A stretch of 37,511 bases of DNA from Elsinoe ampelina (taxonomy: Eukaryota), in the NCBI GenBank assembly GCA_010093995.1, contig ML992503.1, positions 242,984 through 280,494 on the forward strand, given 5' to 3'. Below the pieces are notes generated by a model. The model did no database searches. It saw only the letters and a list, made by a program, of their open reading frames with translations, and was not told where the DNA came from. Below, piece by piece: positions 3,346 through 27,745 of this stretch (its first letter is position 1; the number at the start of each line of letters is the position of its first letter). Position numbers and translations under genes: made by a program.

Positions 3346-3908
3346 CTAGTATAAGCTACTACCTAAAACTCTAATTCTTAACTAACTACTAACTATAAAC
3401 TTCTAATAGTAGCGCTTAGTAAGGCTAGAGTTCTTATAATTAATAGTAATATACTTAGTATAGATAGCGTTAAGGTTTATATCTATAAATAAGTATTAAT
3501 TAAGGTTTTAATATATATTAAATAGACATATACCTTCTATATATCTAATAATAAATACCTCTACTAATTCTTAGAGAGCTCTAAGTATATTAGCTATCTA
3601 GTAATTAACCTTAAGAGTAAGCTATATATCTTAGAATATCTTATAGATAAGGCGAGAAAAGAGAAGTTTATAGAATAATAATTAAATATTCTTCTAGTAG
3701 TAACAAATCTTATAGAGAGTAATAGCTACCTTCTATTAGTTCTACTCTATAATTAGAAACTATAATAAATACTACTAGGCTTAAATCTCTACTTCTTTCT
3801 AGGCTTAGCTTAGAATTATAATATCTTCTTTATAGTAGGTTACTTCCCTTTATAACTTCTTTCTCTAGGACTAGTAGTAGCTTAAGAATAACCTTTTTTA
3901 CGTACTAT
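3346..3908 (-). pseudogene. Histone H3-like gene, copy 1 (3 exons; introns 3726-3772 and 3483-3533), RIP-inactivated
   Basis: De-RIP reading MARKK...KPRKKQRFKPG/TVAL.EIRRYQK...KLPFSRLI.EI...GALQES.EAF...E/D.NLNAIHAKRVTI..KD..LAKR. Introns are GT..AG. Colinear with 19497-20049. The stop position is uncertain. Confidence 0.88.
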
Positions 3909-3917
3909 AGTAAAGTA

Positions 3918-4118
3918 TGTTAAGAATATAGCTCTCTCTAGATAATTAGGCTATAAAGTTATATAACCTTAAGTTATATAATGCTAAGGCCTAGGGATTT
4001 ATAGCTGTTCTTTCTTCTAGTAGATAGACTTCTTAATTAATTAACTCGTCTATTACCTAACTAGTGTACGATTAGTTCTATATAATATTCTACCCCTAAA
4101 CGTGTCTTCTACTTAATA
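3918..4118 (+). repeat. 5' LTR of Copia A copy 2
   Basis: TG...(C>T)A ends; direct repeat of 9086-9286. Confidence 0.96.
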
Positions 4119-4132
4119 GGTTATAAGCCTAG
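4119..4132 (+). promoter_or_regulatory. Primer binding site, internal (half) tRNA-iMet type
   Basis: GGTTATAAGCCTAG here and GGTTATAAGCCCGG in copy 1, directly after the LTR. This is the RIP form of GGTTATGAGCCC, as in Ty5/copia. Confidence 0.8.
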
Positions 4133-4587
4133 AGCTATAGTATAAGTATAGAATTGTATATACCGTAGTTAAGTATCTACGTTATTAAAATTAGGCCGGA
4201 TTCTATTAGTATTCTCCTCCGTTTCCTCTCTATTATCTTAATCTTAGATAGATTAGTAGAGGCAGTATAAAGCGTAAAAGACTAGTTACTTAGTACATTA
4301 AGTAGGACATATTAAGACGTCTACTATAGATTTATTTCTATAATTGTATAACAGCTGCTATTTATTAGCTATAAATAACTAAACAATAACTAAACAATAT
4401 TTGTTTTATTACTATTTTCTCTCTTAAGATTAAGTACCTATTAATCTTATTAACAATTATCTAGTTAAGACTAGTATAGAGATCTTAACACCTAGAAGAA
4501 TTAACTTAAAGGTTATTAACCTCCGGATTCCAACCTTTATTTATTTATTTATAAAGTTCTTTTCTACTCTAGAACTTATCTTTAGCT

Positions 4588-7500
4588 ATAAAAAACAATA
4601 ATACTTAATTAAGGCAGCTAGTACCTATACTATCTAAAGATAACTATAAGAAGTAGTTCTAATAAATAGAGCTCTAGCTTATATTAAAGAAGGTATTATA
4701 GACTCTTACTTCCCTTACTAAACTGTTAGTAATAACTCTAGGGTTATTATTAACTTCCTTATTTAACTCCTAGTATTCTCCTCTATTAGTAGAGGAGAAT
4801 AGTACTACCCTTTACTAGATTTATAGATATATCTCTAAGAGAGATTAAGAAATAATTTAGGAATAGTAGTAGGCTAAACTAGCTTAGGAGAAGCTAAAGA
4901 GCAAGTATATAAAGTAGATAGGTATATAGGTAAGACAACTTTAGAAAGAGTTTATAATATATACTATAGGTAATAATATAACTATCTTAGATGCCTAGTT
5001 ATACCTAACTATATTAGGAAGGAGAATTAATAAGTCTTTAAAGATTAAGTAATACTCCTTACTAATAATAAGAATTTAAAGACTACTTAGTGCTCTTCTA
5101 GCTTTATAGTTAACTATAAGAGATACCTTAGATACTTAACTCTACCTTAGTATAGATAAGATCTATAACATTCTTAAAGAAAAGAAAGCATAAAAGAGAG
5201 AAGGGGAATCTACTATACTTATAAGAGGTAAGCTATAATAGGGAACTAGTAGGAGCTTAAATTATATATATATCTTATATAAGGAACCTAGACACTCTAT
5301 GTTAAGGTGTTCTTATTTCTAATAAGCTAAGAAGTATATCTAGCTATTCTATAGAGTTACTAAAAGGAGTAGCTCTATAAGGAGATAGTTACCTAAGCGC
5401 TAGAAACTACTTAAACTTATAAGATAGCTTACTAAGAGAATAGACTTCCTTAAAGTAGCTAAATTAAGAAGGAGAGGTAAAGCCTATCTAGCTACTAAGA
5501 GTAGTTTATTATTAATATCTCTATCTCTACTACTAGAAGTTCTATCTAGGGATAAAGAGCTTAAAACTATAGGTTCTATATTAGAGGTTTAAGGTAAGCT
5601 TCTATATTATTAGTAGATACTTAACTCTAGAGTATCTAACTATATAATAGACAAGCTAACTCTCTTTAGAGGCCTATTAAGCAAGATTCGTACTTAATAG
5701 ATCTAGGTTAAAAAGAGTTACTTTTAGTTATAGTTAATAGAAACTATAGTTATTAAGACTAAGAAGAGAGATAAGATAAAGATATAGGCTCTTTATGTAC
5801 CTAATCTTAGTATTAATTTAGTCTCCTATTATAAGCTATACTCGGATTTAGGGGTTTCTAGAGTTTTTAATTTAAATTTGTTTCTTATCCTTAATTAGTA
5901 GAAGCAACTATTGCTTAAAGCTAGAATTTAAGAGGAAGTATATATTATCTAATTCCTCTTTAAGTAATTAGCTAATTAAAAGCCGCATTCTAGATCTAAG
6001 CCTAGCTTAATTCTAGATCTAGCTAATTAGGATTTAGCATTCCTTACTACCTAGCTTATAATTATATTATAGACTAAGTATGTATATCTAACCTAGGATA
6101 AGTAATAAGAGGATCTTATTAACTTAGGACCTAATAACTCTAAGATAGAGTATTAGCTCTAGTATAGGAGATTTACTTACTTTAGAATTAAGAAGCTTAG
6201 GGATCTTTATAAAGTTATAACCCTTAAGAAACCTATTAACCTAAACTATAATCTATCTATTCTATATAAGGTCTATTCCCTTACTAAGATAAGGAATAGA
6301 AAAGGTAAAACCTTATAGAAAAGACTAGAGGTTCTTTAGCTTATCTATACTAATATCTATAGCTTAATTAAAGTAAGTAGAGAAGAATTTAGATACTTTC
6401 TAGAGCTTATAGATAGCTACTTAAGAATAATATAGATTAGTCTACTTAAGATAAGAGATAAAGCTCTATAAAGGCTTATTAAGTAGAAGCTAAGAGTTAA
6501 GAAGGAAAGTAATACTAAGGTTAAAGTTACTAGATTAGATAATACTAGTAAACTTAATAAGATTCTAAAGTAGTAGGAGCGCTAAGAAGATATCTATTAT
6601 ACAACTACTAAGCTATATAATTTAATTTAGAATAGACTAGTAGAGAAAGACATCTAAACCTTAGAGAATAGTATAAGAGTAATACTTAAGGACTTAAAGA
6701 TGCTAAATAAGTTCTAGCCTAAAGTAGTTTAGGTAGATATATACCTAAGGAACAGGACAGTAACTAGACCTATAATCAATAATAAACAAGTTATACCTAT
6801 TAAGGCCTATATAGGCATTAAGCTATTAGTTAATTATATTAGAGTCTAGGGCTATAAGGTATATACCTATATAAACCTAAAGTCCCTTTCTATATATAGA
6901 AGAAAAGATAAGCTTATAGATAGAAGGAGAGTAGGAGTATTCCTTAGCTATATAGATAGAACTAATAGGATATATAAGATATAGGTATTTAATAGGAAAG
7001 TAGTAATTATATTACTAAATGTTAAATTCTCTAAGTTTAAGAAAGATAGTAATATTAATCTTAGTATTAGGATTAATACTATAAGCAATTAAGCACTAGT
7101 TAGGAGACTAGTTAGTAGACTAACTTAGATTTAGACTAAGGTTAGATCTAGGATAGACTAACTAAATTAGCCTATTTAAAATAAAGCACCTATAGGAAGA
7201 ATCTTCTTATATATTAAGATCCTAAGAGTTAACCCTATTAACATTATAGATTTCTAACATAGAGAAGAGCTAATAGTTTAATCTTTACTAACTAACTATA
7301 TAAGTTAATCACTTAAGAGATTAAGAGATAATAACTCTAATAATAAAGGCTCTAAAGCTAAGTACTATAGAGCTTTTATTACTAAGTATATTAATTAGCA
7401 AGATAAGGTTAATAAGATTACTATAATAGTCTCTATTAAGTAACATATCCTAATCCTAAGGGACTACTATAAGGCTATTACTAATCTAGTATAGGGAAGC

Positions 7501-9057
7501 AAATAGAAGAAAGTAATTAATATAGAGCTTAATACTCTACACTTAAACAATATATAGGAAGAGGTTATTTCTCTAAAGGGATCTAACTTAGTAATATCTA
7601 AATAGGTCTTTAATATTAAGTATAATATAGATAGCTCTATTAAAAAGTTTAAGGCTAGACTAGTTACTAGAGGCTTCTTATAGAAGTATAGCATTAACTA
7701 TAAAGATATATTTATACTAATAGTTAGAGTAGATACACTTAGGCTATTCTTCGCTATTGTTTATATATATAACCTTAAGTGTCACTAGGTAGATATTAAT
7801 AACACCTTTATAGAGTTCTTTCTTTATAAAAGGATTTATATAAGGCTACTACCTAGACTAAAGGTTAGTTCTAGATTTGCCTTCCGGATTCTAAGGAGCT
7901 TATATAGACTTAAGTAAGCTACTAGAGACTAGAACTAGCACTATATCTCTAAGCTCCTAAAGCTAGGCTTTACTTAGAGCGAAGTAGACTCTTATCTTCT
8001 TATATACTATAATAAGAAGATTATTCTTTTAGTTTATATTAATAATATACTATTTGTAGTATAAAGTAAAAAGAATATCTAGTAGTTTAAGTAAGAACTT
8101 AGTAAGATCTTTAAGATTAAAGATCTTAGTAAGGTCAATAAAGTTCTTAGGGTTAAGGTTATAAGGGACAGATAATAAAGCACCTTAAGACTTAATTAAA
8201 CCTACTATGTAGATAATATGCTATAGAGGCTTAATATAACCTCTAACAAGGTTACTCTAATAAAGCAGCTAATAGATAATAAACTCCCTTAAAGAGCTTA
8301 GGAAGATAATATAAGGTTTAGTAGAACTAAGTACTTATATACTATTAGAAGCTAGATATACCTTAGCACTCTAACAAGGCTAGATACTGCCTTTGCCTTA
8401 GGAAGGCTAAGTTAGTTCATAGCAGATCTAATAGATAGTTATACTATTAAGATAAAGAAGATGTTAAGATATATTAGATTAACTAAAGATCTTAGTATTA
8501 TATTTAGAAGGAATAGAAATAAGACCCTTAAGGGATACTCTAATTTAGACTATGCCTTAGACAAGTTAGATAGAGTCTCTATCCTTAGATATGTCTTTAT
8601 ACTTGTAGGTAGTTCTATTAGCTAGATAAGTAGGAAGCAGAAGTCTGTTTTAACCTCTACTATAGGGGCTAAATACATAGTAATATACTCTTATATAAAG
8701 AGATTACAGTTCCTGTCTTAGTTACTAAGAGACATAGGCTGTTATAAGATAGTTAGGCAATTACTATAGAGGCTAACTATAAAGGAATCTTAGAAAGCAA
8801 TAATAAGATTACCTTTTACTACTAGGATTAATAGTAATAACTAAGTAGCTCTTTTACTTATAAAAGAGCTATATACTTATAAAAGGGCAAAGTATATTAA
8901 TGTTGCTTACTACTACGTTAGGAGGCTATAGAGGGACTAGAGGATTTAAGTAGAGTTTATAAAGATAGTAGACATAGTAGCTAATAGGTTAACTAAGCTA
9001 TTATAAGGTTAGATCTTTATAAGGTTTATAAAGTAACTTAGCTTATTATTAACCTAA
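4588..9057 (+). pseudogene. Copia gag-pol polyprotein relic (~1490 codons)
   Basis: De-RIP motifs: CX2CX4HX4C knuckle ~5267-5310; protease WILDSGASNHM ~5614-5646; LWHRRF.H ~6157-6180; integrase core ~6340-6760; RT (KARLV.RGF.Q, LYGLKQA.R.W, LVY.DD) ~7450-8250; RNase H (GYSDSDYA, KHIDV.YH) ~8530-9050. Confidence 0.93.
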
Positions 9058-9085
9058 TAGCTTATCTATAGGAGCTAAGTAGGAG

Positions 9086-9286
9086 TATTAAGAATATAGC
9101 TCTCTCTAGATAATTAGGCTATAAAGTTATATAACCTTAAGTTATATAATGCTAAGGCCTAGAGATTTATAGCTGTTCTTTCTTCTAGTAGATAGACTTC
9201 TTAATTAATTAACTTGTCTATTACCTAACTAGTGTGCGATTAGTTCTATATAATATTCTACCCCTAAACGTGCCTTCTACTTAATA
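9086..9286 (+). repeat. 3' LTR of Copia A copy 2
   Basis: Direct repeat of 3918-4118, preceded by a purine-rich tract and followed by the TSD. Confidence 0.96.
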
Positions 9287-9623: not shown

Positions 9624-9802
9624 ATATCTATACCTATAGAAGACATTAAGATAGAGTAGAAAGAGTAGGTAGTAATTAAGTAAGAAGAAGACAATAGAGA
9701 GAATGTTCTAAGAGAATTATTAGGGGTATTAATTATAGTCTCTTATTATATATAGTTACTAACAATACTAGAGATTTAATTCTAAGTAGTAGAAAATTAA
9801 AC
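9624..9802 (+). pseudogene. Truncated 5' fragment of the acidic-tail ORF3 paralogue (exon 1, intron 1, start of exon 2)
   Basis: Colinear with 20389-20567; similarity ends abruptly at the hAT TIR at 9803. Confidence 0.75.
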
Positions 9803-10190: not shown

Positions 10191-10394
10191 TAATTACGAC
10201 TAGCAAGATAAGGGAGTTAATTATATCTATTTATTAAGATATCGAGACTTAGAAGAAGAAGAAGAAAAGCTAGTATACAAAGCACGCGTAATATCGAGGG
10301 CGGAGCAGCTAGAAGCCTAGGCCGCGATACTAAAATTACATAACTAATCTAAACTATATCCTAACTAAATCTAGTTCGTATCTATCTCGTATTA
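10191..10394 (-). repeat. 3' LTR of Gypsy B copy 1
   Basis: Direct repeat of 16376-16579; the PPT complement CTATCTTCTCTCTT is adjacent at 10395. Confidence 0.95.
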
Positions 10395-10717
10395 CTATCT
10401 TCTCTCTTAAGTGTATTTACTCTTAAATACTATTATATATTATTTATTAATCTATTTCGGCCTTAGCTTATCTATGTAAGAGTCTAGATAGTTATATAGC
10501 ACGTTAGCTACTCCTTTAAGATTGTTAATTAGCCACTAGGTAAGATTCTCTAGATAGCTCTTCTAGCTTATATAAGTAACTAGTTTACTACGTAGTATAT
10601 GTATATTAACTACGTCGTCTACCTCGTATTTCTCTTTACTATTAACTTCTATCGGAGGTAGTTCCTTAAAGACTTAGCCTAGTAGAGAGTTATTTAGATG
10701 CTTAGTAAGTAGATTAG

Positions 10718-10921
10718 TAATACGAGATAGATACGAACTAGATTTAGTTAGGATGTAGTTTAGATTAGTTACATAATCTTAGCATCGCGGCCCGGGCTTC
10801 TAGCCGCTCTGCCCTTAATATTACATGTGCTTTATATACTAGCTTTTCTTCTTCTTCTTCTAAGTCTTAATATCTTAACGAATAGACGTAATTAACCCCC
10901 TTATCTTACTAGTCGTAATTA
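10718..10921 (+). mobile_element. Solo LTR of Gypsy family B, in opposite orientation inside Gypsy B copy 1
   Basis: Complete 204-bp LTR with flanks ATTAG (10713-10717) and ATCGG (10922-10926), which differ only by transitions. The uninterrupted site is present in copy 2 near 32861-32865. Confidence 0.93.
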
Positions 10922-13900
10922 ATCGGCGTAGAATATAGAGTAGATTTATTATAGCGTAGCTAGTAGATCTAGCTTATATACTAATAGTAACTACTTCTCG
11001 AGGATCTTATATAGACTAACGTGTTTTAGTAGTAGCTTTAGATTGCTATATAGCTAGAGGTTCTTTATCGATAACTATACTAAATCGCCTACCTTAAACT
11101 CTATCGGCTAGTAGTGCTTATTAGCTTATTCTACTATACGCGATTAGGCAATAGCAAGGTTAGCTTTAGTAATAACTAGCGCTTCTTTTAGTTGTTTAGT
11201 AAGTGTATAGATGTCGACCTTATTTAGCTTAGCTCTTGTTAATAGTGCGTTAAAAGGGAGTTAGAAGCTTAGCCTTAGCTTATATCCTCTAGTAACCTTA
11301 AATAGTAATAGCTTAGTACTCTCTAATAGGTTAACGTTAGTAGAGAACTCTATAACTAGTAGAATAAGAGTCTAATTACTAAAGCGTATAGCGTATAAAT
11401 AAATAACTTACTCGAACTTACAATTTATAACTTCTAATTAGCTGTCTATCTATAGATGCCCTATAGTAGATAGTTTAGTAGTAATCTTTAGGATTTAGTA
11501 GAGCCTCTTCTATACGTCGCTAACGAACTAAGAGCTATAATCTAAGGTAATACTATCTAGTAGGCTATATAGTTTCTACACATAGAAGAATAATAGCTTA
11601 GCTATCTTAAATATAGAGGTTCCTTCTTCTCCCTAGAAGTAAGGGATTAAGTGTTGTTCCTTAGACAAGTAATTGACAATATATAGTACTACGTTATAGC
11701 TATCTACTAGAGGTAGGCTAGTAACGAAGTCTATAGTAATGTATTACTAGGGCCTAACCGGAATAGGTAATAGTAATAGAGGGCTAGCTAGTAAGCTATA
11801 GCGAGCCTTTAAGCGCTTATAGTTATAATAGTTAGCGATAAACCTCTTAACATTAGAATTACACCCGGGGATATAGAAAGTAGACTTAATTATAGTAGCC
11901 GTCTTAGTAGCTCCTCCGTGTATGTAATTCTTTAATATATAAACTTCTTAGATAACTTTTGTAGCTATAGAGAAAGGCATAATTAATCGGCTAGTAGCGT
12001 ATAGTATTCCCTTCTTAATTATAACATTAGTCGATAGTAACTATTTTCTCTTTAGGAAGGCTTCTATTATATAGTAGACACTATAAACTGTCTCGAAGTT
12101 AGAGTCTTATAAGTTAGCTTTAGCTACTTCGTCGAAAAGGAGTAAAGGCTCTTCTATAGCGGAGATAGGTACTATATAGATACCTAGCTCGCGAGCCGAA
12201 ATAGGCAGCGAAATAGGTGCTAAACTAGATCTTAGTTTAGCCTAGATTAGTAATTTAGCTCGGATACGACCTAGATTTAGTTCGTTAATAATATGCTAAT
12301 CTAGCACTTTATATAGTAATAGCGTCTAGCGTAGATTAGAGTCTTCTTTCGAACGTAGTACGTCTCTATTTCTTCTTATAAGTGTGTTAGTCTTACTATT
12401 AGCGGCGCTAGACCTATATATAATCTTAAAGTTAAACTACGTAAGGTAGAGGGCCTAGCGCACTTAGTAGCGTAATAGCTTCTAAGTCTTTATAAAATGC
12501 ATTAAGGATTAGTAGTTAGTAAGGACGTAAATAGCCTTATCGGATTAAGTACTTATAAGCTTAGAGGCCTATTCCTTAAAGGCTTAAACGATTACTAATA
12601 GCTCCTTATTATAGATTACGTAGTTATGTTCGGCTTTGCTTATAGATTTACTAAAGAAGGTAACAGGCTAGAGAACGTCGGAATTGTTATATTACAATAG
12701 AATTCTAGTAGTAGTAGTATCGGAGGCGTCGGTCTTAATAACTACTTACTTCGAGTAATTAAAGTACGCTAAGATAGAGGCACTTATAATAGTATACTTT
12801 ATGTAGTTAAACGTAGTAGTATACTTATTATTTTATAGCGTAGCGTCCTTCTTAAGTAGGTCGTTTAATAGCTTAGCGATAGTACTAAATCCCTTAATAA
12901 AGTAGTAATAGTAGCTATAGAAACTAATAAAGCTTCTTATCTAAGTAGTATTACTAGGGGCTAGTTGTTTCTAGGCTTATATAGCTTTAACCTTCTTTAG
13001 ATCTATCTTAACTCTATCTCGACTAATAATAATACTAAGATACTTTACTTCTGTTAGGTAGAACTTGCTCTTCTTAATATTAGTATTTAGGTCTAAATTG
13101 TAGAGACGTTAGAGTACTAGCTTAATATACTTAGCGTACTCTTAGCAAGTGCCGTCGGTATAGATAAGAATATTATTAAGATAGATTAACACGAAGCGCT
13201 TAAGCATGTTAACAAAGTTATAATTTATAAACCTCTACTATACTATAGAAGCGTTAGTAAGGCCGAATAGCATTACTAACTACTTAAAGTTACCTATACG
13301 TATAGAGAACATAGTAAGGTCTTTACTATCGATAGAGTTATAGAGGTAGTAGAAGGCTTAATAGATATTAATCTTACTAAACTATTTAGCTTTACTTACG
13401 CGCGTAAGTGTTTCTTTAATAAGAAGTAAAGGATAGATATCTCGCTTAGTTACCTCGTTAAGGCTATAGTAATCGATGTAAAGGCGAAGTTCGCCGCTAG
13501 ACTTATAAACAAAGAGAATAAGCAAGGAATAGCTAGCTAAGCTTAGCGTAATAAAGCCTTTATTAAGGTGCTTATAGATAAATAGCTCTACTATATTAAG
13601 CTCCTCTAGTAATAGGCAGCGAAGAGGTTTAGTACGTAGTAGTTTAGCTCTATTCTTAAGTGTAATTTAATTGTTAAAATCTAGCCGATATAGAGGAAGC
13701 ATATTAGATTACTCTTTAGAGAAGACGTTAGTAAACTTCTATAGCTCTTCTAGGAGAACTACTATAGGGTCTAGTTCTAGCTCGGAAGCTATCTAGTAGT
13801 AGTTCTCGATATTCTTTACTAAGATTATAAACACCTTATTCTTTTAGTATTTAGCTACTAATACAAAGGTAGCGGCGCTAATAAAAGCAATAGTTAGCTC

Positions 13901-16375
13901 TTCTTACTTAGTGTTACTTACGTAGGTAGGTACGTAGGAGAACTTATATATTAGCTAAGTACTATAAGAGATTAGGTTAAACTCTCTCTAATTTAGCTTA
14001 AAGTTCGACCTAAGAGCTAGTAGTCGATATAGTCTAGTTTATCCTATCTTAGCGGCTAAGCTAGAACCTAGTTCGTAAGTTAAATTAGAACTAAACTAGT
14101 TCCGAACTAGAGTAGTAGCTTTACCGAGCTAGATTTCTAGATCTAAGCTAGGCTTAGATCTAGATTCTAGTCTTTTAATTAGCTACGGTAGCTCCTACTT
14201 AATAACTGTCGGTAAAAACTCTTCTTTGTATATAACTTAGCTATGCTTATAGTCGATAGTAGCCCTATTAGCCTTAAGCTATCTAAGGCTAAGGATAATA
14301 TTAAATCGGCTAATATCTATAATACGGAAGGTAGTAAAGTTGTTTAGCTTACTAGAAATAGTAGTAGTAAGAGAGACGCTATAAGTAACTTATTCTATCG
14401 GAACACTATTATAAGTCTAAAGCTAAATAGAGCTAGCTAGTGCCACCGGACAGCTAAAACTCTTTAGCTTATTAAGAATATTATAGTTAACTATAGCGCC
14501 GATAAGCGCGCTAGTATCGATAAAGACTTAAAGTGCAATAGTACAAGAGTAGTTATAGAGGTTATAAATAGTAATAAGAGTTATAATAGCGAGGATATAG
14601 TAGCTAACGACGCTATTTAATAACTATATACCTCCGGATCTATCTCGAATTACTCTTATTCTACTAGAGAATAGAACTTGTTCTCTAGCTACTTATTTCT
14701 CTAGCTAGATAGGCTAGTAGACTTATAATCTATTTCGAGGTTAAACTAAGACTAAACTAGATCTAGTTCGTAAGCCGAACTAGTATTAACTTAGTTACTT
14801 AATTCGGCTAAGCGATCCTAGAGCTATTATATCTCTTCTACGGCACTAATACGTATAGGACGTAAAGCGGCGTAAGTAGCCTTCTCTAAGGCGCTAGCTA
14901 TATACTTAGTAGAGATATAGCTAGGCTTACTACATATATAATAGGTAAGTATTAGAGCTAGACGAAAGAGCTATAGGGCTCCTCTAGTAATAGAGCAAAA
15001 GGTAGCTAGAGTAGTAAGCGCGGAAGTAGAATAAGACACACAGATTAGTACTATAGTAACGTAGCTTATAGCTAGGCTAGAGTATAAGGCCTAAGTACGC
15101 TTAGTAATAAGGTTGCTCTATTAAATATTATAGTTAGTAGCGTAGGCCTTTATAATAAAGGTAGAGAGGTTATTAGTATTAAAGTTAATAAGAGTAACGC
15201 GTAGTTTATTAGATATCTTCTAACATAACTAGTAGAGCTATTTATCCTTAGCAATCTTAGCGCGAAGAGCGTACTTATTAAATTCGCTAATAAAGGAGTT
15301 AAAAGAGGTATTACGCTAGAAGAGGCTAGTAAACTAGGCGCGCGTAGTAGCCTTATAGTTAGGGTCTTCGAAGCGCTAAGCTAAGATACTAAGGGTAGCT
15401 TTAACGTTAAGGGTGTTATTACCGGCAAAGTCTATAATAAGAGTATATACTTCGCTAGAAAGGTGCGAGTAGAGATAGGTAAACTAGGTTACCTCGGTAG
15501 AGAAATAGTTAGTATTAGTACGTATCTTGTTCTTTATTTAGTGCTTAAAAACCTTAAACTGTTCTAGAGTGCCACTAGAGAAGATAGCGAGGTCTAGTAT
15601 CTTTTTAGACAATATAGTACCGTATATAGAGGGAGCTAGTATAGTACGTTCTATCTTAGCTCTTAGCTAGGCTAGTTTAGCCTTAAGTTTGCTAATGTCT
15701 ATAAGGTAGCGCGTAGTTTAGATAGTAAGATTATTAGTAGTACTATTAGTAGTATCTAGTTCTATTAGAGCGTTATCTAACTAGTTACGTAGGTTAAGAG
15801 TGTTAGCATATACTAAGTTATATACGGTAACCTATCCATCGTAGGTAGACTTAATAAAGGTAAAGGCCTTATATAGAGTAGTTATCCTATCTATCTCTTA
15901 TAGCCTCTTCTTAAGGTTAGTGTTACTAAGGCAGATAAGGTCGTAATAGGCTAACTAGACTAGTTCGTTATTGTTGTTAGCGGGGGGTAAAGAGATCTTA
16001 CTTACGTAGCAATTATCTTCGCTATAGTTAGAGTAAGCTATGCTCGGCGTAGTTAGTTATAAATAAAATAGTGTAAAAAGTCAACGCGTAACAAAGGAGA
16101 TATTAAAAATTTTTAGCCGGCGGCCTACTTTCTTTAAGAGTTGTCTATAACTCGACTTATTACCTTCTTCTTATATCTTCGAAGTTTGTAGTATTAACCT
16201 ATATAGTAGTAGTAAGGATCTATTATAGTGTACGTAGGAACTATAGTTATAATAGCTTCTTCTTTAATTCTTTAATTCTTCGTAAGTAATAGTTAGTAGT
16301 TATATAAGTAGTAGAATAACTAGATAATTTAATAGCTCCGTTGCTTAGTTATAGTTGTTCGAAGTCTCGATATAG

Positions 16376-16579
16376 TAATTACAACTAGCAAGACAAGGGA
16401 GTTAATTACGTCTATTCGTTAAAATATCGAGACTTAGAAGAAGAAGAAGAAAAGCTAGTATATAAAGCATATATAATATCGAGAGCGAAGTAGCTAAAAG
16501 CTTAGGCTATAATACTAAGATTACATAACTAATCTAAACTATATCCTAACTAAATCTAGTTCGTATCTATCTCGCATTA
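16376..16579 (-). repeat. 5' LTR of Gypsy B copy 1
   Basis: Matches the other four family-B LTRs. Confidence 0.95.
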
Positions 16580-19496
16580 TATTCTCCTTGTAATTGCTTA
16601 GAATAAAGTTACTCTCTTAAGAAGGTAGCTTAAGTAGGTTATCTACCTTGTCTATAGTAGTATCTTTATAACTACTATTAATAGTATCTTAATAACTACT
16701 AGTAATAATATTACTACTTAACAAAGAGAGACTTATTATAAGCTTTATAATAATAAGCTACTAGATAGTTTATATAGTAAGCTAGTGTCTTCTATTACTA
16801 ATAATATTCTTTACTATATTAAAGACATATTCGACACCTACGCTAGCTATTAGTATAGCAAGGATATTATAAGTAACTTTAGTAAGCTATAGAAACTTCT
16901 TCTTATTAGTCTTCTACTAATTAAGCAACTTAAATTTAGTCCCTAGTTAAATTCGAATAGGAGAGATACTAAGGTAATTCTTACTCTCTTAATATATAGT
17001 TTATTTCTCCTTCTCTTATTTTAGAGATATAGACTCTATACTAGATTAGAAGCTAAAGCTAGTCTACGGGGAGGTAATCTATATAGGTACTCGAGGTCGA
17101 CGGAACTAATCCTCTTTATTATTAGACAAGATTATAGCGTTAAGAGTTTTAGGTTAACTTAATAGTAATTTACTATTATAATAACTAAGGTAGTTAAGGA
17201 ACTACTCGCGATACTTCCCCTTATTAGTTTTAGCCTAGGTCTCGTCCTATATTACTATTAGCTTTACTATAATAATATATCTATAAGCTATAAACCTCGT
17301 AGGGAGTTAGCTTTTATAAAGGGTCAAGAATAGTGCTATAATTAAAGAGGTAACTTCTCTTATTATTAGTGTAAGAATAGTACTTTAATAGTTTATCTTA
17401 ACTATATTATACTACCCTTTTAACTACTATAGGCTAACGCTCCTTATTATTCTTCTTCTCGCCTATAATACTATTCTTAATTATATTAAGAAAGTCGAAT
17501 AGTTAATTATATATTATCTAGATATATAAGATCTATAGGCGGCTAATAGTACTTAGAGAGGTAGTTACTTCCTTAAAGTTCTTAAGTATTTTTATAACTA
17601 GCTTAAGGTAATTCTATTCTATACTATTAAGATAAAGATACTTAAGATTCTTATAGTCTAGATTACTAGTGTTATTACTAACTAAGTTAGATCTAGCACT
17701 AGTAGAGCCTTTTAGTATAATTTCCTACTTAAGCTATTTATTAATAAATAGCCTAAGCTCGAGACTATACTTATATATATTAAAGGTTAAGTTCTACTAC
17801 GTCTTAATATCTTAAATAATAACCTTACGCTCTCGAGGCGTTATAGTTTATTAGAGGTTAATAAACCTCTTAAACCGTTAAGGTAATTAGTTAATAGTAA
17901 TATAAGTTACACGAAGCTAGTAATTTATTAGACTATAATTAGAAATTGTAATTAGAAAGCTAATCTTCCGAAGCGAGTTTAGTACTAAGAGTTTAGTAGA
18001 GATATCTTTTAAGTGCTATCTTTTAAGCCTAGTAGCCTACTCTTCTTCCTTAGTAGTCTAAAGGTTAAGGTGCTTAATAATGTCTTATATAACTAGGTTA
18101 ATAATATATATAAGGCATAGAATAGTATTCTCTTATAAGTTCTATATAATACCTATCTATCTTAGAAGCTTATATATAGTCTTATATAACATATAATTGT
18201 TACTTACATTATCTATAGTAATTGCTAGAAGCTAGTTCTAGAGATTATACTACCGGAGTACCTATATAAGCTTAGTAGCTATATTCTGCCCTATATATTA
18301 ACTACGAAGTAGTACTATATCTAATAGTTGTTCCCGGAGATACTATTAGTTATTAATATAATAAGCTTTAATTGTAATAAAGCCTAAGTAGTTGTTAGTA
18401 GACTAGCTATTAAGTGTAATTAAAATCTTTATAGTCTTATTAAGATTCTATAATAAGCTTTTATAGAGAGTCTTAAATTTGTTAATAAAGAGTATAGCGA
18501 AATAACTACGGCTTAGTATAAGTACTCTCGGGTATAAGAACTATATAAACTATTAAAATAATAGTCGCTTAATAGTGTAGAAGGACTAATTATAGTTAAT
18601 AACTGTTTAAATAAGCTCTAATTAGAAGTAAGTAACTAAATATAATAGAACGTTTTTCTAATCGATTACTAGATAAGCTCGAAGTTATATAAGTACTCGG
18701 ACTACTAGTACTTTCTTATAGACTAGTCTTGTTACTTTCCTACAAAAATTTAACTCTCTGTATTTACTTATTACATTAGTACTATTCTTTCCTAGCGTAG
18801 AGTAGGTAAGAGCATTACTATACTATAGGTAGTAAATATATAGACGACTATCTAATACCTATATAGCTTCTCTAAAATATCTCTATACTTGTCTAGTTCT
18901 TAGTTTTAAGTTCTAGTATAGTATATAGAACTCCTTAGAGTAACTATAGCAAGATACCTAAAGTATTAAGTTCTACTATATTAAGAAGCTTTAGAGGTCT
19001 ATTTGTTCGTTAGGATATACTAAGGGATTAAGCGTTAGACACTTTAGAAGATACTATTATATAGGCTAACTACCCTTATTGCATTATTATATAGTAAAAC
19101 AATAATTAAGCAAATCTTAAGAGATAGAGATTACTATAACTAATAGAGTTAATAGAAGATATAGTTATAGATCGATTAGATCGTTAAAGTCTACTATAGT
19201 AGAGTAGAGGTTATATAGTATTATAGATAGTATAGGTGTTTATAATGTTATACTTATTTAGCTATATAATTTTAAATAATAGATTTGTTTTTAGACTATT
19301 AGAAAGTCTTCTCTACTATTACTTTACATAAGGCATTTTAAAACGCGCTAGTAGCCCCTATATAATTACAAATATTAATTATAACTAATATTTTTAATTC
19401 TAACCTTTAAAGTATATAATAAATAGAAAGGATTAAAGTATTATTATATTATATTATTATAGTAAAGAAATTTATTACTCTCTCTATACTATTTCC

Positions 19497-20049
19497 CTAG
19501 TATAAAGTACTACCTAAAGCTCTAACTCTTAATATATTACCGACCTAGAACTTCTTATAGTAGCGCTTAGCAAGGCTAGAGTCCTTAGCCTAGATAGTAA
19601 TATACTTAGTATAGATAGTATTAAGGTTTATATCTATATATAGTGTTAATAGAGAATTTAACATATATTAGATAAGTATATACCTTCTATATATCTAATA
19701 ATAAATGCCTCTACTAATTCCTAGAGAGCTCTAATTATACTAGTCTAGAAGTAAAGGTTAGACTTAAAGTTCTAAGTAATCTTATAGATAAGGCAAGAAA
19801 AGAGAAGCTTATAGAATAATAGAGTAATCTCTTTCTAGTAGCAACAAATCTCTTAGAGAGCGATAGCTAGCTTCTATTAGTTCTATACTATAATTAAAGA
19901 CTATAATAATTACTACTAGGCTTATATCTATACTTCTTTCTAGGCTTAGCTCTAGATTATAGTATCTTCTTTATAGTAGGTTACTTCCCTTTATAACCTC
20001 TTTCTCTAGGACTAGTAGTAGCTTAAGGACAATTCTTAGTACGTACTAT
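19497..20049 (-). pseudogene. Histone H3-like gene, copy 2 (exons 19914-20049, 19684-19866, 19497-19633; ~151 aa), RIP-inactivated
   Basis: De-RIP reading MARTKN...[54 protein letters not shown].EAF.....E/D.NL.AIHAKRVTIQAKD..LAKR, a clear H3 histone fold. Introns are 47 and 50 nt, GT..AG. The stop position is uncertain. Confidence 0.92.
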
Positions 20050-20109
20050 AGTAAAATAAGAGGTTATTTATGTATAGCTAAGGAGTTAAAGTTTATATAT
20101 AAAATTTTA

Positions 20110-20280
20110 ATATATGTAAAATAGTAAAAAGAGAAGGCTAGAGTAAGAAATATAAAACCTATTATTAGATATGCTATTTACTATTAATAATAAGAATAAT
20201 AGGAGAATAATAAATAACTTATATAATAATAGCTTTCTTGTTTCTTACTCTAGCTTCCCTTTTTATTATTTTATATATTT
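20110..20280. repeat. ~40-bp imperfect inverted repeat in the H3L/ORF3 divergent intergenic region (also at ~9343-9513)
   Basis: TATATGTAAAATAGTAAAAAGAGAAGGCTAGAGTAAGAAA (20111-20150) pairs with TTTCTTACTCTAGCTTCCCTTTTTATTATTTTATATA (20241-20277). Confidence 0.8.
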
Positions 20281-20388
20281 ATAAATTGTAATTTCTAACT
20301 CTAACTTTACCTTTATACCTTTATCTCTTTTACTTACCTTATATATAATTTATATACTATAAATACTCTTTTTATTATATTTAATTAA

Positions 20389-21657
20389 ATGTCTATACCT
20401 ATAGAAGATATTAAGATAAAGTAGAAAGAGTAGGTAGTAATTAAGTAAGAAGAAGACTCTAGAGAGAATATTCTAAGAGAATTATTAGGGGTATTAATTA
20501 TAGTTTCTTATTACATATAGTTACTAATAATGCTAGAGGTTTAATTCTAAGCAGTAGAAAATTAAATACTAGATCTCTTAGCGTAGTGCTAGTTAAACTA
20601 GAAAGAGCTATAAGACTAGATTTGTCGCTAGATACTCTAGACCTCTAAGTTAAAGCGCTTATGCTATTAAGTAGAGAGATTATACTTCTTAGCGTATATA
20701 TAAGGAGTAAGCTCTAGCTACTACTTATATAGTAGATTATAAAGTAGTTAGTACTTTACGTAACAAGATTAAGATAGAGAATAGATAGGACTAGCTCTCT
20801 ACTAATAAGTAGAATATTAAAATTAATAATGCTATTAATAATATAGAGGAGAAATACTTTAATAAGTAGAGAAGTAGTAAGTCTATTATTATAGTATACT
20901 ATTATAGTAGTACTAATTGTTATAGGCGAGTAGCTCGAATTTATATTTATATAGACCTATAAGAAATAGGCTAGTATTAGAAAGACTCTATAAAAGTAAG
21001 AGTATAACAAGATTATTAAGCGTATCTAAGATAATATAGTAGCAAATTAGTAAGGCGAATAATAGCTAATATAAGCCTATACGTATATCTATAGTACTAG
21101 TAGTATTATTAAGAAGCTATAGCGCTAGATTTACTAGGATAGCTATATAAGCCTTATTACTAACGATACTAACAATAAATAGACATATAAGATTTTTTTT
21201 AAGTAGCTTAAAGAGCTCTCTCCTATAGAATTAGTAGTATTATAGAATCCTAACTAGTAGTAAGTTTATTATAGTCTTTAATTATAGTATATTCTAACAA
21301 TTATATAGGCTAGTTATTTCTCTATCTCCTAAGTATAAATATATCTCCGAGCTTAAACTCTATAGTACTAGGCTATACTATAAAGGAGACAATAATAATA
21401 AGTATAAGAAGAAGGTTAAGAAGAATAAGAATAAGATTAAAAGAATATTAGATAAGGAAGCTAGTAGTAATAAGGATTATTATTTAGGTATTAAAGTTAA
21501 AGATAAGTCGGATAGTAAGGATAAGAATAATAAGATTATAAAGTACTTTAAGCTTAAGACTAATAGTAATAACAATAATAAGGATAAGAATAAGAATAAG
21601 AATATAAAGAATAAGAATACTACTAAGGTTAAGGATAAAGAGATATCTAATGCCTAG
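20389..21657 (+). pseudogene. ORF3: 4-exon gene of unknown function (~374 aa) with a long Asp/Glu-rich C-terminus, RIP-inactivated
   Basis: Intact ATG at 20389. Introns 20491-20536, 20877-20925 and 21260-21308 are all GT..CTAAY..AG, and splicing them keeps one frame to TAG at 21655-21657. In 21385-21654, GAT/AAT/AAG/GAA codons revert to D/E runs. Confidence 0.72.
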
Positions 21658-22393
21658 ATATAATAGAGATTAAAAGTATAATTCTATAAGTAGTAGTATT
21701 AGAGAATATAGTTTATAATTAGAATCTATTATTAGTAATTATACTTTGTTATTTTGTATATTACTAATAACCTATAGAGTGTAAAATTTATAACTCTACT
21801 CTAACCTACCCCTTAGCTTAGCTAACTCTAACTCTACCTACTCTCGCGAGAGTTAGCTAAGCCTAGAGGTAGGTTAGAGTAGAGGTAAGTTACCTAGAGA
21901 AAATTCTAACTCTACTCTACTCTATAACTACTCTAATTATAGATATAATTAGTTACTCTAGAATCTAGTATCTATAAGCTTAAGATGTTAGTAGTAGCTA
22001 AGATAAATACTAAGTGTAATCTAATAGTAATAGCTATATTAATTAACACTAGTAGAGTTAATTCCTTTTAATATTATACTTCTTTAGTAATAAAAGCCTT
22101 AATTCTCTCTTTAAGAGTCTTATTATTTAGCCTTTATTTAACCTCCTTTATAGTCTACTAGTTTAGTGTCTATCCTTCTAGCCTTAGATACTTATTTAAG
22201 TAATAGTACTTAATCTACTTATACCAGCCTTAGTATATATATTTAAGCTCCCTAGAGAAACTAGGTTTCTTATAAAGAATATTCTTAGTAGCTATAGAGA
22301 AGGCTATAGCTCCCTTACTAGCCTTTATAGTACTATATAGCTTATAGAGTTTATAAAACTGTCTAAACTTAGTAATTAGTTTAAGTATAGTTA

Positions 22394-22857
22394 TGTTATA
22401 AACTAGTAGGATAAGCTAGAGCGTAGAGACGTTAGAACTAATTAAACTACTAAGGTTATTACGCGACCTAGCCCGACGTTTACCCGGTTCTCTATCTTCT
22501 CTAGTAGCTCTACCCCGGAGACTATAGAGCGCATAGGTTACTAGTAGACGTATACTCTATCTTCTCTAGCGGCTCTACTATAGAGCACGTAGAGTATATA
22601 AGGTACGTAGTAAAGAACACATGTATATAGGAATAGTCCTTACCTTATATAAGTACTATAGTTAACCTTATCTAGATAGCGAACACTAGTATTACTAAGG
22701 CTAGCCTTTATAATACTATCTAATTGTACTTTATTATCTATAAGACATATCTTCTCTAACTCTTACTTTAGTACTATACTACTATAGAAGTAGAACTACC
22801 TCGTTCTTAGCTTAGCTTAGACTACTAATATAGGCTATGTTTAAACAGTTCGTGACA
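22394..22857 (+). repeat. 5' LTR of Gypsy D
   Basis: Direct repeat of 35136-35599; contains an internal 24-bp duplication and TATATAAG near 22647. Confidence 0.96.
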
Positions 22858-24962: not shown

Positions 24963-27745
24963 CTAGTTGTTACCTAATAAGGTAAGACAATAACGCTAGC
25001 TAAAGCCTTAATATAATAAAGATCTATATATTAAATTACTTTATACTAGAAGCCTAGATATAAGAAAATAAGGTAAGAGTAATAATAGATTCGGGAGCTA
25101 ACTATAGCTACGTCTCTATAATAGTTACTAAATAGCTTAAACCTTATTAACATTAGAAGGAGTTACCTTACCTACTTACTATAGCTAATAGAACCTCTAT
25201 AGAGAAGGATAGGAAAGTTACTTAGGAACTATAAAACGTTATAATTAAAATCGGGACATATATAGAAAAACAATTAATCGATATAGTTAACATATAGTAT
25301 AATATAGTACTTAGCATAGACTAGCTTTAATAACACAATCTAGACATAGACTAGATTAAAGAAACACTTAAATTCCCTAAGTGTAATTATAGGACGTAGA
25401 GAGTATAATTAGCTCTATAGATACTAACTATAAGGATAGTATAGGTACGACTAATAGTTAGAGCTATTACTAGCGTAAGTAATTAAGTACTTCCGCCGGA
25501 ATATAAAGACTTTAAGGACTTATTTATAGAAAGGAAAGACATTGTAGCCTTGCTCTAATATAAACTATAGAATTACAAAATACCTTTTAAAGAAGGTAAA
25601 TCCCTAACACACTATTAAGGTCTAATACCACTATCGAAATAAGAGAAGAACGTTCTTAAGAACTACATCGACAAGTACTTACTTAAAGAATTTATACAAC
25701 TATTAAAATTACCTATTGTGCACGGAGTGCTTTTTACACCTAAGAAGGATAAGACATTATAAATATATATTAATTACTAGAAACTTAATACACTTACCCG
25801 AAAGAATTACTATTCTCTACCTAGGATTAACAAACTCTAAGACTAACTACTTAGAGCTAAATAGTTTACTATAATTAATATTAGGAATGCCTATTATTAA
25901 GTATAAATAAAGGAGAGCAAGGAGTAGAAAACAGCTTTTAGGATATAATAGAGTCTATATAAATACCTTGTTATACTCTTTAGGTTAACTAACGCTCCTA
26001 TAACCTTCTAAGAGTTAATTAATAACACTCTATAAGAATACCTTAATAACTTTGTCTTAGCATATCTAGATAATATTATTATCTTCTTAAAGACGTACGA
26101 TAAATATATAGGACATATTTATAAAGTGCTACGAAAACTAAAAGAGAAAGACCTACTAGTAAAACTCTCTAAGTGTAAGTTCTATAAGCATAAGATACAA
26201 TTTCTAGGCTATGTTATATCTACTAATAGTATTAGACCTAATCTAAAGAAGATTAAGTTAGTAAATAACTAGCTAGAACCTACAATAGTTAAGGAGGTTT
26301 AAGCGCTACTAGAGTTCTTTAACTACTACTATAAGTTTATTAAGGGATTCTCCGAAGTAGCTACGCTAATATCTAACCTTATAAAAAAGAAAACTAGCTT
26401 TGTCTTTAACGAAATATATAGGTAGGCCTTTAAGGAGCTAAAGCTTAGACTTATAATAGTACCTATCCTAGCACTCTTTAACCTAGACTAATAAGCACTA
26501 CTAGAAATAGATGCCTTAAACTTTATAATAGAAGTGTGTCTAGTATAGAAAGATATATAAGAATAACGCTACCTAATTATATACTACTTACGAAAAATAA
26601 CTAGGCCTAAACTTAACTACGACATATACGATAAAGAATTACTTATAATTATAGAAGTATTCCGTAAATAGTATATATACCTAGAAGAAACAACCTTACC
26701 TATATAAGTCTATACCGACTATAAGAACCTATTATATTAGACAATAACTAAGGTTCTTAATAGACAATAGGTTCGATAGTTAGAAACACTTACGAGCTAT
26801 AACTTTTAGATCTACTATGTTAAGGGATTAGAGAATAGCAGAGTAGACGCTCTTAGCTAATAACTAGACTACTTAAAGAATATAATAATAATAGAGGCCT
26901 CTATACTAAAGTAGTAAGATAGCGCTTTAGTCTATAAGCACCTAAAGGTAAAGCAATTATATAGCCTTACCTAGGAGCTTACGTAAGAATAGAAAAAAGA
27001 AGTTATTTAAATATACTATAATAACCTAACTACAGGACATAGCAGGATTAATAAGACTATTAAACTTATTATATAAAACTACCTATAGAAAGAACTCCGA
27101 AATAATATTAAGATATATATTACTATATACAATATATACTATAAGTCTAAGCACTTACAATATAAGCTGTATAGCCTACTATAACCCTTACTACTACTAG
27201 ATAAGCTATAATACGAGATAGATACGAACTAGATTTAGTTAGGATGTAGTTTAGATTAGTTACGTAATCTCGGCATTATAGCCTAGACTTCCGGCTACTC
27301 CGCTCTTAATATTATATGTGCTTTATATACTAGCTTTTCTTCTTCTTCTTCTAAGTCTTAATATCTTAACGAATAGACGTAATTAACCTCTTATCTTGCT
27401 AGTTGTAATTACTATATCGAGACTTTAAATAACCGCGACTAAGTAATAGAGCTATTAAATTATCTAGTTATTCTACTACTTATATAACTACTAACTATTA
27501 CTTACGAAGAATTAAAGAATTAAAGAAGAAGCTATTATAACTATAGTTCCTACGTACACTGTAATAGATCCTCGCTACTACTATATAGGTTAATACTATA
27601 AACCCTAAAGATACAAGAAGAAAGTAATAAGTTAAGTTATAGATAACTCTTAAAGGAAGTAAGCTACTAGCTAAAAATTTTTAATATTCCCTTTGTTACG
27701 CGTTGACTTTTTACACTGTTTTATTTACAACTAACTACGCTAAGC

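What the first reader, a model, noticed from the sequence alone, without database searches (positions are those of the whole stretch)
19914..20049. H3-like tail has canonical length and keeps K4 and K27 positions but lacks K9, K14, K18, K23 and K36
Counting from A1, H39-R-Y-K-P-G-T45 falls in canonical register. Codon 4 is AAG and codon 27 is AAG, but 9=GCT, 14=AGA, 18=TAT, 23=CCT and 36=AGA. RIP makes only C>T/G>A changes, so these cannot come from Lys codons and the losses predate RIP. Copy 1 also has GCT at 9 and AGA at 36. Inference: nucleosomes containing this variant could not carry H3K9me3 or H3K36me while still accepting H3K4me.
Basis: partly seen in the sequence, partly recalled or inferred. 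Interest (0 to 1): 0.8.

Follow-up and report, generated by a model that had tools for sequence, protein, structure and literature searches.

The report
Dead transposon-borne histone H3 copy
The stretch is the first exon of a mutation-riddled, dead copy of a histone H3 gene carried by a hAT transposon; its tail lacks several of the usual lysines, but related transposon copies keep different ones, so this looks like a loosened tail rather than a designed one.

Summary
20049→19914 (minus strand) is exon 1 of an H3-like gene. The codons are as stated: 4 AAG, 9 GCT, 14 AGA, 18 TAT, 23 CCT, 27 AAG, 36 AGA. Copy 1 has GCT at 9 and AGA at 36. Once two short GT-AG introns are recognised, the gene is colinear with H3 and the tail has canonical length.

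It is ordinary in kind. It is a RIP-killed H3-like gene in a hAT transposon: a hAT dimerisation domain lies downstream on the same strand, and the repeat is high-copy in at least two organisms. This class was described in 2013 and 2019. Copy 2 has 9 premature stops and copy 1 has 11.

The RIP argument is valid: Lys codons cannot become GCT, AGA, TAT or CCT. The changes are shared by two diverged copies.

- The tail carries far more non-RIP change than the fold (24 of 45 against 17 of 89 codons, p = 1.2e-4).
- Residues 13-36 are unalignable, so K27 matches only at chance level.
- "Loss of K36" depends on the alignment chosen.
- Published consensus sequences of related hAT H3-likes keep other lysines. 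One keeps K4 and T-A-R-K; another lacks the K4-K9 segment but keeps K14, K18 and K36.

Only K9→Ala and the lysine-free stretch 5-18 are robust. The chromatin inference is untested speculation. Interest is modest.

The parts
19914..20049 (-). H3L copy 2, exon 1: RIP-altered start codon (ATA), tail codons 1-44 and the first base of codon 45. This is the finding itself.
   Evidence: Codon table; splice model.
19867..19913 (-). Intron 1, 47 nt, GT..AG with a CTAAT branch-like motif, phase 1 within codon 45.
   Evidence: Removing it puts exon 2 in frame, and exon 2 then matches H3 46-103 without gaps. A Czm_cons and a Peu_cons passage in the published supplement have an intron at the same site.
19684..19866 (-). 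Exon 2, H3 residues 45-106 (helices alpha-N to alpha-2), with 5 RIP-type stops.
   Evidence: PDB phmmer E = 1.8e-7. Pfam PF00125 E = 3.8e-5. 79 H3-type proteins at E<=1e-3 among 1.84 billion representatives.
19634..19683 (-). Intron 2, 50 nt, GT..AG, phase 1 within codon 106.
   Evidence: The spliced reading continues colinear with H3 to the stop codon. The Czm_cons passage has an intron at the same site.
19545..19633 (-). Exon 3, H3 residues 106-134 plus the TAG stop.
   Evidence: PDB phmmer matches H3 100-130 (E about 0.3; the H3 chains dominate the list). The spliced CDS is 408 nt, or 136 codons including Met and stop.
16743..16976 (-). Remnant of the C-terminal dimerisation domain of a hAT transposase, downstream of H3L on the same strand.
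   Evidence: Pfam PF05699, E = 3.1e-7, 30.5 bits, above the cut-off of 21.4.
20050..20573 (-). Upstream flank 'B' of the H3L unit. It is also present at 9287-9806 next to copy 1 and contains an imperfect 59-nt inverted repeat (20127-20185 / 20206-20264).
   Evidence: 93% identity over 532 columns to 9278-9806. Inverted repeat I1.
3394..3908 (-). H3L copy 1: exon 1 3773-3908, intron 1 3726-3772, exon 2 3534-3725 (with 9 extra nt), intron 2 3483-3533, exon 3 3394-3482. It has 11 premature stops.
   Evidence: 84% identity to copy 2; gene model and stops.
3920..9286 (+). Copia-type LTR retrotransposon inserted a few bases upstream of the start of copy 1. Its LTRs are at 3920-4118 and 9088-9286, and it is flanked by a 5-bp target duplication.
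   Evidence: Direct repeats; junction sequences.

Best explanation
The finding is exon 1 of a histone H3-like gene (H3L) that rides in a hAT DNA transposon. Repeat-induced point mutation (RIP) has inactivated it.

Shown:
- The gene has three exons and is colinear with H3 from Met to stop. Its tail has canonical length.
- It lies upstream of a hAT transposase remnant on the same strand.
- The unit is high-copy in the source organism and in a second organism.
- Every premature stop is TAA or TAG. Six of the nine in copy 2 sit where H3 has Arg or Gln (codons 49, 55, 76, 85, 93, 120).
- Tail residues 5-36 differ from H3 by changes that RIP cannot make, and a second diverged copy shares them.

Inferred:
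- Before RIP the element carried an open, spliceable H3L reading frame. Its histone fold stayed close to H3, while the middle of its tail was released from constraint and drifted by substitutions and small compensating indels.
- The loss of K9, K14 and K18 is most simply a by-product of that release. It need not be a device to escape H3K9 or H3K36 methylation, because related hAT H3-like lineages kept different lysines.
- Today these two copies do nothing as protein.
For: - Codons are as claimed.
- Intron-aware model: 408-nt CDS, 9 premature stops, all TAA or TAG.
- Exon 2 aligns without gaps to H3 46-103, E = 1.8e-7. Pfam Histone E = 3.8e-5. 79 H3-type hits in the 1.84-billion representative library.
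- hAT dimerisation domain PF05699, E = 3.1e-7, downstream on the same strand.
- 380 contig pieces in run X1 and 1223 in X3 lie on the unit at >=80% likeness; pieces are also found in X5 (21) and X8 (87).
- RIP indices for the unit are TpA/ApT 1.65 and (CpA+TpG)/(ApC+GpT) 0.18.
- RIP-aware codon test against a fungal-type H3 (P0077). Tail: 12 same, 9 RIP-reachable, 24 not, of 45. Fold: 39, 33, 17 of 89. Odds ratio 4.8, p = 1.2e-4.
- The tail states at codons 9, 14, 18, 23 and 36 are identical in copy 1.
- In an organism-D contig (X8 record 28, 19889-19989, 8 differences) the six listed differences fall in codons 30, 32, 33 and 41, not in 23, 27 or 36.
- The class is published: PMC3538342 (passages read) and PMC6710886 (Results section read).
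- Published consensus H3-likes have introns at the same two sites (both in Czm_cons, the first in Peu_cons) but keep other lysines (supplement passages, translated by eye).
Against: - No intact copy was seen, so the pre-RIP open frame is an inference.
- Between the two window copies, transversions are spread evenly over codon positions (11, 8, 9). All 5 in exon 1 change the residue. So there is no sign of purifying selection since they split.
- A Lys/Arg/Pro/Ala-rich, low-complexity tail could diverge faster than the fold by slippage alone.
- TIRs and an 8-bp target duplication of the hAT element were not found.
- The host's own H3 and CenH3 could not be examined, because no genome is held. 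A divergent host paralogue as the source gene is therefore not excluded.
- Only 40 of 235 variant rows were shown, so copies with Lys at codons 9, 14, 18, 23 or 36 elsewhere in the genome are not excluded.
- The comparison with the published consensus sequences was done by eye on passages. Those sequences are de-RIPped consensuses, not real copies.
Confidence: 0.72

Rival explanations
1. H3L was, or in intact copies elsewhere still is, a transposon-encoded H3 variant. Its tail was shaped so that nucleosomes containing it cannot carry H3K9me3 or H3K36me but can carry H3K4me. This would shield the element from heterochromatin, and perhaps from the heterochromatin-linked route of RIP.
For: - K9 is Ala in both copies within a colinear 1-12 block that keeps R2, K4 and T11 (T3 only in copy 2; copy 1 reads AAA at codon 3), and no Lys lies between residues 5 and 18.
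- The fold is conserved relative to the tail (p = 1.2e-4).
- The frame is open apart from RIP-type stops, and splice signals are kept in both copies.
- Tail states are shared with a contig from another organism.
- The element was very successful, reaching high copy number in two organisms.
Against: - Both copies are dead.
- K27 matches at chance level, and K36 is probably retained as K37.
- Related hAT H3-like consensus sequences keep T-A-R-K (Peu_cons) or lack the K4 segment while keeping K14, K18 and K36 (Czm_cons). So there is no family-wide K9-less, K4-keeping design.
- The copies were RIPped anyway.
- No mechanism is known that would deposit such a histone on the element itself.
Confidence: 0.1
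2. A passenger that never functioned. A host H3 gene with its introns was captured by the hAT element and was never used as a protein. Everything seen is neutral decay followed by RIP.
For: - Transversions between the two copies show no codon-position bias (11, 8, 9).
- Tails of related families differ by indels and in which lysines survive.
- Manning et al. suggested drift for the Pyrenophora H3L.
- Dhillon et al. treat all extra copies as inactivated.
Against: - Neutral decay should hit tail and fold alike, yet non-RIP change is 24 of 45 against 17 of 89.
- Over 408 nt there is no frameshift and no stop that RIP cannot explain, although the tail has diverged beyond alignment.
- GT..AG and branch-like motifs survive in both introns of both copies.
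Confidence: 0.16
3. Not transposon cargo. These are decayed duplicates of a host H3 paralogue that merely lie among transposons.
For: - No TIR or target duplication of a hAT element was found.
- The unit shared by the two window copies is only about 1.16 kb.
Against: - A hAT domain lies 2.6 kb downstream on the same strand.
- Hundreds to more than a thousand contig pieces lie on the unit in runs X1 and X3.
- Published hAT H3-likes have the same architecture and intron sites.
Confidence: 0.02

Closest known systems
[quoted passage not shown] 2019, PMC6710886)
   Same: - An H3-like sequence inside a hAT element, hundreds of copies, all RIP-inactivated, in AT-rich blocks.
- In passages of their Czm_cons and Peu_cons consensus, the H3-like is interrupted by GT..AG stretches at the same codon-45 site (both), and at the same codon-106 site (Czm).
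- Short tail motifs recur: P-x-x-K-K-[V/I] with Peu_cons, and K-G..P-I-K and L-x-R-x-A-K with Czm_cons.
   Different: - No 15-17-nt word of the window's H3L occurs in their consensus file, so this is not the same lineage.
- Their tails are 7 or more residues shorter and keep other lysines.
- The paper describes the P. fijiensis copies as intronless retrocopies; the window's copies have two introns.
- The paper never mentions tails or lysines (0 occurrences).
Pyrenophora tritici-repentis H3L on a 5.6-kb hAT element (Manning et al. 2013, PMC3538342)
   Same: An H3-like gene carried with a hAT transposase. By the paper's account it belongs to neither bona fide H3 nor CenH3 (passages).
   Different: - The Pyrenophora copies are intact, nearly identical, have ESTs, and have insertions in the tail.
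- The window's copies are RIP-dead and have a tail of canonical length.
- Their sequences could not be fetched here; the figures and PDF supplements are not held.
Canonical fungal histone H3
   Same: - Colinear from Met to stop (134 against 135 residues after Met), with the same tail length.
- 72 of 89 fold codons are identical to P0077 or reachable from it by RIP.
   Different: - 24 of 45 tail codons need non-RIP change.
- Both ARKS motifs are absent.
- It is multi-copy, linked to a transposon, and riddled with stops.
CenH3 / CENP-A
   Same: A conserved histone fold with a divergent tail.
   Different: - The tail is not lengthened, and both of its ends are still H3-like.
- The copy-2 fold aligns to H3 without any gap, so loop 1 carries no insertion.
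- It is multi-copy and lies in a transposon.

Membership tests
Histone H3 (histone fold, Pfam PF00125) | Sequence match to the H3 histone fold, helices alpha-N to alpha-3 | tested here: met
   Exon 2 matches H3 46-103 without gaps, E = 1.8e-7. Exon 3 matches H3 100-130, E about 0.3. Pfam PF00125 gives E = 3.8e-5 at 24.4 bits, just under the 26.4 cut-off, for one exon only. 79 H3-type proteins match. The first Pfam scan used the wrong frames, so its blank is not a negative. Exon 2 of copy 1 gave no Pfam hit.
Histone H3 (functional gene) | Open reading frame | tested here: not met
   Copy 2 has 9 premature TAA/TAG stops, copy 1 has 11, and the start codon reads ATA in both.
Canonical H3 tail | Lys at positions 4, 9, 14, 18, 23, 27, 36 and 37, and two A-R-K-S motifs | tested here: not met
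   In the ungapped register only K4, K27 and K37 coincide. Codon 9 is GCT, 14 AGA, 18 TAT, 23 CCT and 36 AGA. No ARKS motif is present.
hAT-transposon-borne H3-like (transduplication class) | H3-like gene linked to a hAT transposase in one unit | tested here: met
   PF05699 at 16743-16976 on the same strand, downstream of H3L.
hAT-transposon-borne H3-like (transduplication class) | Multi-copy and RIP-mutated | tested here: met
   Two copies in the window. 380 contig pieces in run X1 and 1223 in X3. RIP indices 1.65 and 0.18.
hAT-transposon-borne H3-like (transduplication class) | Terminal inverted repeats and an 8-bp target-site duplication enclosing both genes | tested here: inconclusive
   No matching termini were found between about 20560-20590 and 16400-17100 at up to 3 mismatches in 18, nor among the 25 longest inverted pairs. 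RIP and nested insertions may hide them.
CenH3 | Long unrelated N-terminal tail and a longer loop 1 | tested here: not met
   The tail has canonical length with H3-like ends. The fold of copy 2 aligns to H3 without gaps.

The most novel reading that the evidence does not exclude
Before RIP caught it, this hAT lineage expressed its own histone H3 variant. The variant had a near-canonical fold and a remodelled tail that kept the A-R-T-K start but had Ala at position 9 and no lysine between residues 5 and 18. Flooding chromatin with an H3 that cannot be K9-methylated would weaken heterochromatin, and the heterochromatin-dependent branch of RIP, on newly inserted copies. That would make it a transposon-encoded counter-silencing histone.
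Probability: 0.08. Interest if true: 0.85.

Novelty: new member of a known kind. Interest (0 to 1): 0.33.

Why it matters
If a transposon really carried a histone built to resist silencing marks, that would be a new kind of genome conflict, so the idea deserved a check. The check shows a member of an already described class, hAT elements carrying H3-like genes, that is dead in this window.

Three things are modestly new:
- This lineage keeps two introns and a tail of canonical length.
- Its fold is much better preserved than its tail, which hints that the passenger gene was once used as a protein.
- Different hAT H3-like lineages kept different tail lysines. This argues against a single designed modification pattern, and neither of the two papers on the class mentions it.

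Tried and rejected
- Whole genome: none is held, so the host H3, the host CenH3 and a genome-wide copy census were impossible.
I replaced it with small references.
- First Pfam scan of H3L: 0 families. It used two frames that do not hold exon 2, so it is not a negative.
- I first read a frameshift between tail and fold, and a 33-residue insertion. I rejected both once the two introns were recognised.
- Tail alone against PDB sequences: 0 hits at E<=10.
- Tail against the 5.8-billion-protein collection, longer proteins: no candidate shares three words. This is weak evidence.
- Earlier findings of the scan: nothing by place, by sequence or by words.
- RNA: no RNA holder is listed among the runs.
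- Pfam on 20100-22400 in six frames: nothing.
- Search for hAT termini: nothing.
- 15-17-nt words of the window in Dhillon's consensus file: none. Tail-specific 9-11-nt words: none relevant.
- A possible third H3L copy at 21254-21291: only 38 nt of the exon 1/intron 1 junction match. I did not pursue it.
- Cluster names of five hit proteins, looked up to find the Pyrenophora H3L: not found.
- Literature searches for a transposon-encoded histone with altered tail lysines: only the 2013 and 2019 papers deal with H3-like genes in hAT elements.

Full report
**What is there**

The window is about 30% G+C. Its dinucleotide indices are extreme for RIP: TpA/ApT is 1.94 and (CpA+TpG)/(ApC+GpT) is 0.22. 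It is a mosaic of decayed repeats.

- Codon 0 is ATA at the Met position.
- Codons 1-4 are GTA CGT ACT AAG.
- Codon 9 is GCT, 14 AGA, 18 TAT, 23 CCT, 27 AAG and 36 AGA.
- Codons 39-44 are TAT AGA TAT AAG CCT AGT.

A second copy ('copy 1') starts at 3908 and is 84% identical over 653 columns. It has the same codons at 9, 14, 18, 23, 27 and 36. Its codons 3-4 read AAA-AAA, so 'A-R-T-K' is seen only in copy 2.

**Gene model**

I first took the change of frame after codon 44 for a frameshift. It is an intron.
- The stretch 19913-19867 is 47 nt. It starts GTAATT, has a CTAAT branch-like motif, and ends CTAG.
- The 'A' at 19914 and the 'CT' at 19866-19865 make ACT, which is T45.
- A second intron of 50 nt (19683-19634, GTATAT...TATAG) splits codon 106.

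Spliced, copy 2 is 408 nt. That is Met, 134 residues and a stop, colinear with H3 and without any gap.

The model is anchored by tools:
- Exon 2, read from codon 46 with X at stops, aligns to residues 46-103 of solved H3 chains at E = 1.8e-7. All 60 chains shown are H3.
- Pfam Histone matches at E = 3.8e-5 and 24.4 bits, just under the cut-off, for one exon alone.
- 79 proteins of a 1.84-billion library match at E<=1e-3, and they are H3-type by their sequences.
- Exon 3 matches H3 100-130.

So the finding's interval is exactly exon 1, and the tail has exactly the canonical length.

**It is transposon cargo, and dead**

On the same strand, 2.6 kb downstream of H3L, lies a hAT C-terminal dimerisation domain (PF05699, E = 3.1e-7, above the cut-off).

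The 1.2-kb unit is a high-copy repeat. At 80% likeness or more, 380 contig pieces of run X1 and 1223 of run X3 lie on it. There are also 21 pieces in X5 and 87 in X8. By their labels these runs come from four organisms.

Copy 2 has 9 premature stops and copy 1 has 11. All are TAA or TAG. Six of the nine in copy 2 sit where H3 has Arg or Gln (codons 49, 55, 76, 85, 93, 120). At codon 30 a contig from organism D reads CGA.

Copy 1 was cut off from its upstream flank by a copia-type element (3920-9286). A 5-bp target duplication shows that the two sides were once contiguous.

I did not find hAT terminal repeats.

**Is the RIP argument sound?**

Yes. RIP makes C>T and G>A changes, and from AAA or AAG it can reach only AAA. 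GCT, AGA, TAT and CCT therefore cannot descend from Lys codons by RIP.

The two copies share these states, yet they differ by 28 transversions over the exons. So the states were present in their common ancestor.

The converse caveat is that AAG can be a RIP product of GAG, AGG or GGG. 'Kept K4 and K27' therefore cannot be proven from these copies.

**How tail and fold compare**

I tested each codon of copy 2 against a fungal-type H3 returned by a search (P0077). The question was whether the codon encodes the same residue, could be reached from a codon for that residue by RIP changes only, or could not.

|---|---|---|---|---|
| Tail 1-45 | 12 | 9 | 24 | 45 |
| Fold 46-134 | 39 | 33 | 17 | 89 |

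The odds ratio is 4.8 and p = 1.2e-4.

Within the tail, the share of codons that RIP cannot explain varies by block:

|---|---|
| 1-12 | 5 of 12 |
| 13-36 | 18 of 24 |
| 37-45 | 1 of 9 |

Three consequences follow.
- **The ends are homologous to H3, so K9→Ala is robust.** The neighbours R2, T3, K4, T11, a RIP-compatible R8 and G12 hold the register. No Lys lies between residues 5 and 18 under any alignment.
- **The middle cannot be aligned.** Only 2 of 24 positions are identical. In a tail that is 9 of 44 Lys, one coincidence among the canonical Lys positions there is what chance gives. 'K27 kept' therefore carries no weight.
- **The asymmetry is hard to explain by neutral decay.** Together with a frame that is open apart from RIP-type stops, and splice signals preserved in both copies, it points to a period in which the fold was under selection and the tail was not.

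Against that last point, since the two copies split their transversions show no codon-position bias (11, 8, 9).

**The wider family**

Two papers describe this class.
- Manning et al. 2013 (PMC3538342; passages read) report intact, expressed H3L genes on a hAT element in Pyrenophora tritici-repentis. These have insertions in the tail and belong to neither H3 nor CenH3.
- Dhillon et al. 2019 (PMC6710886; abstract and Results read) report hundreds of RIP-dead H3-like copies in hAT elements of six Mycosphaerellaceae, interpreted as intronless retrocopies.

Neither paper discusses tail lysines. 'Lysine' occurs 0 times in each, and 'tail' occurs 0 times in Dhillon. Three literature searches found no other treatment.

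I searched Dhillon's supplementary consensus file with short motifs and translated the passages by eye.
- **Czm_cons.** Its H3-like has GT..AG interruptions at the same two sites as the window (codon 45 phase 1 and codon 106 phase 1). Its tail lacks the K4-K9 segment but keeps G-K-A-P-R-K and G-V-K-K-P, that is K14, K18, K36 and K37.
- **Peu_cons.** A passage that lies after the Peu_cons header has the codon-45 intron. Its tail keeps K4, T-A-R-K (K9) and K14, and is 7 residues shorter than canonical.
- **A third passage.** It is intronless at the 44/46 junction and keeps K14 and K18.
- **Shared motifs.** Short derived motifs link these tails to the window's: P-x-x-K-K-[V/I], and L-x-R-x-A-K.
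- **K36.** Comparison with Peu_cons suggests that the window's K37-K38 are K36-K37 with P38 lost. 'Loss of K36' would then be an artefact of the ungapped register.

So lysine retention differs from lineage to lineage. There is no family-wide loss of K9 and no family-wide retention of K4.

The caveats are real. These are de-RIPped consensus sequences read by eye from passages, and none of them is an intact gene.

**Verdict**

- The RIP logic and the timing before RIP hold.
- K9→Ala and the lysine-free stretch 5-18 are real features of this lineage.
- The claims about K27 and K36 do not survive alignment uncertainty.
- The chromatin inference has no support beyond plausibility, and both copies are pseudogenes.

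The thing is a new member of a known kind. The counter-silencing-histone idea stays open at low probability. It could be tested by a genome-wide census of copies and a transversion-only selection analysis, neither of which I could run without the genome.

Noticed in passing
Supplement file 2 of PMC6710886 (Czm_cons and Peu_cons passages), compared with window 19867-19913 and 19634-19683: The published consensus H3-likes of the Cercospora zeae-maydis and P. eumusae hAT elements are interrupted by GT..AG stretches at the window's codon-45 intron site. Czm_cons is also interrupted at the codon-106 site. The paper concludes that an intronless transcript was captured (shown for P. fijiensis). A third passage is indeed intronless at the first site. 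The capture history may differ between lineages.
   Followed up: partly
window 19417-20049 against 20044-20573 (copy 1: 3266-3917 against 9278-9806): Between the two copies the H3L gene and its 3' flank differ by about 6-7% transversions (41 over 652 alignment columns). The adjoining upstream flank B differs by only 5 transversions in about 530 nt. The two halves of one unit seem to have different histories, perhaps through recombination between subfamilies or concerted evolution of the flank.
   Followed up: partly
window 1-3036 and 3916-6960; 3920-9286: Two copia-type elements lie head to head around H3L copy 1, with 93.5% identical inverted arms of 3 kb. One has LTRs at 3920-4118 and 9088-9286 and a 5-bp target duplication just upstream of the H3L start.
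   Followed up: partly
window 10926-16581 and 27207-32861: A 5.6-kb repeat pair in inverted orientation, 90% identical, with 200-bp terminal repeats (10191-10397, 10715-10921, 16376-16579, 27209-27411, 33184-33393). It is probably a gypsy-type LTR element abutting the hAT remnant.
   Followed up: no
window 20127-20185 / 20206-20264: An imperfect 59-nt inverted repeat (80% complementary, 20-nt loop) sits 80-215 nt upstream of the H3L start. It is conserved in the copy at 9304-9541. Its role is unknown; it could be a promoter element, a subterminal hAT structure or a nested MITE.
   Followed up: no
window 21254-21291 (+ strand): A 38-nt piece, 95% identical to the exon 1/intron 1 junction of H3L, lies in the opposite orientation 1.3 kb upstream of copy 2. 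It may be a shred of a second, divergently oriented H3L, since published elements carry one or two.
   Followed up: partly
protein P0029 (named): A 147-aa protein annotated as histone H3 in Emergomyces africanus has a lengthened tail and many Arg-to-His/Cys and similar changes of the RIP type, yet keeps K4 and an A-H-K-S motif. It may be another decaying extra H3 copy in a different fungal class.
   Followed up: no
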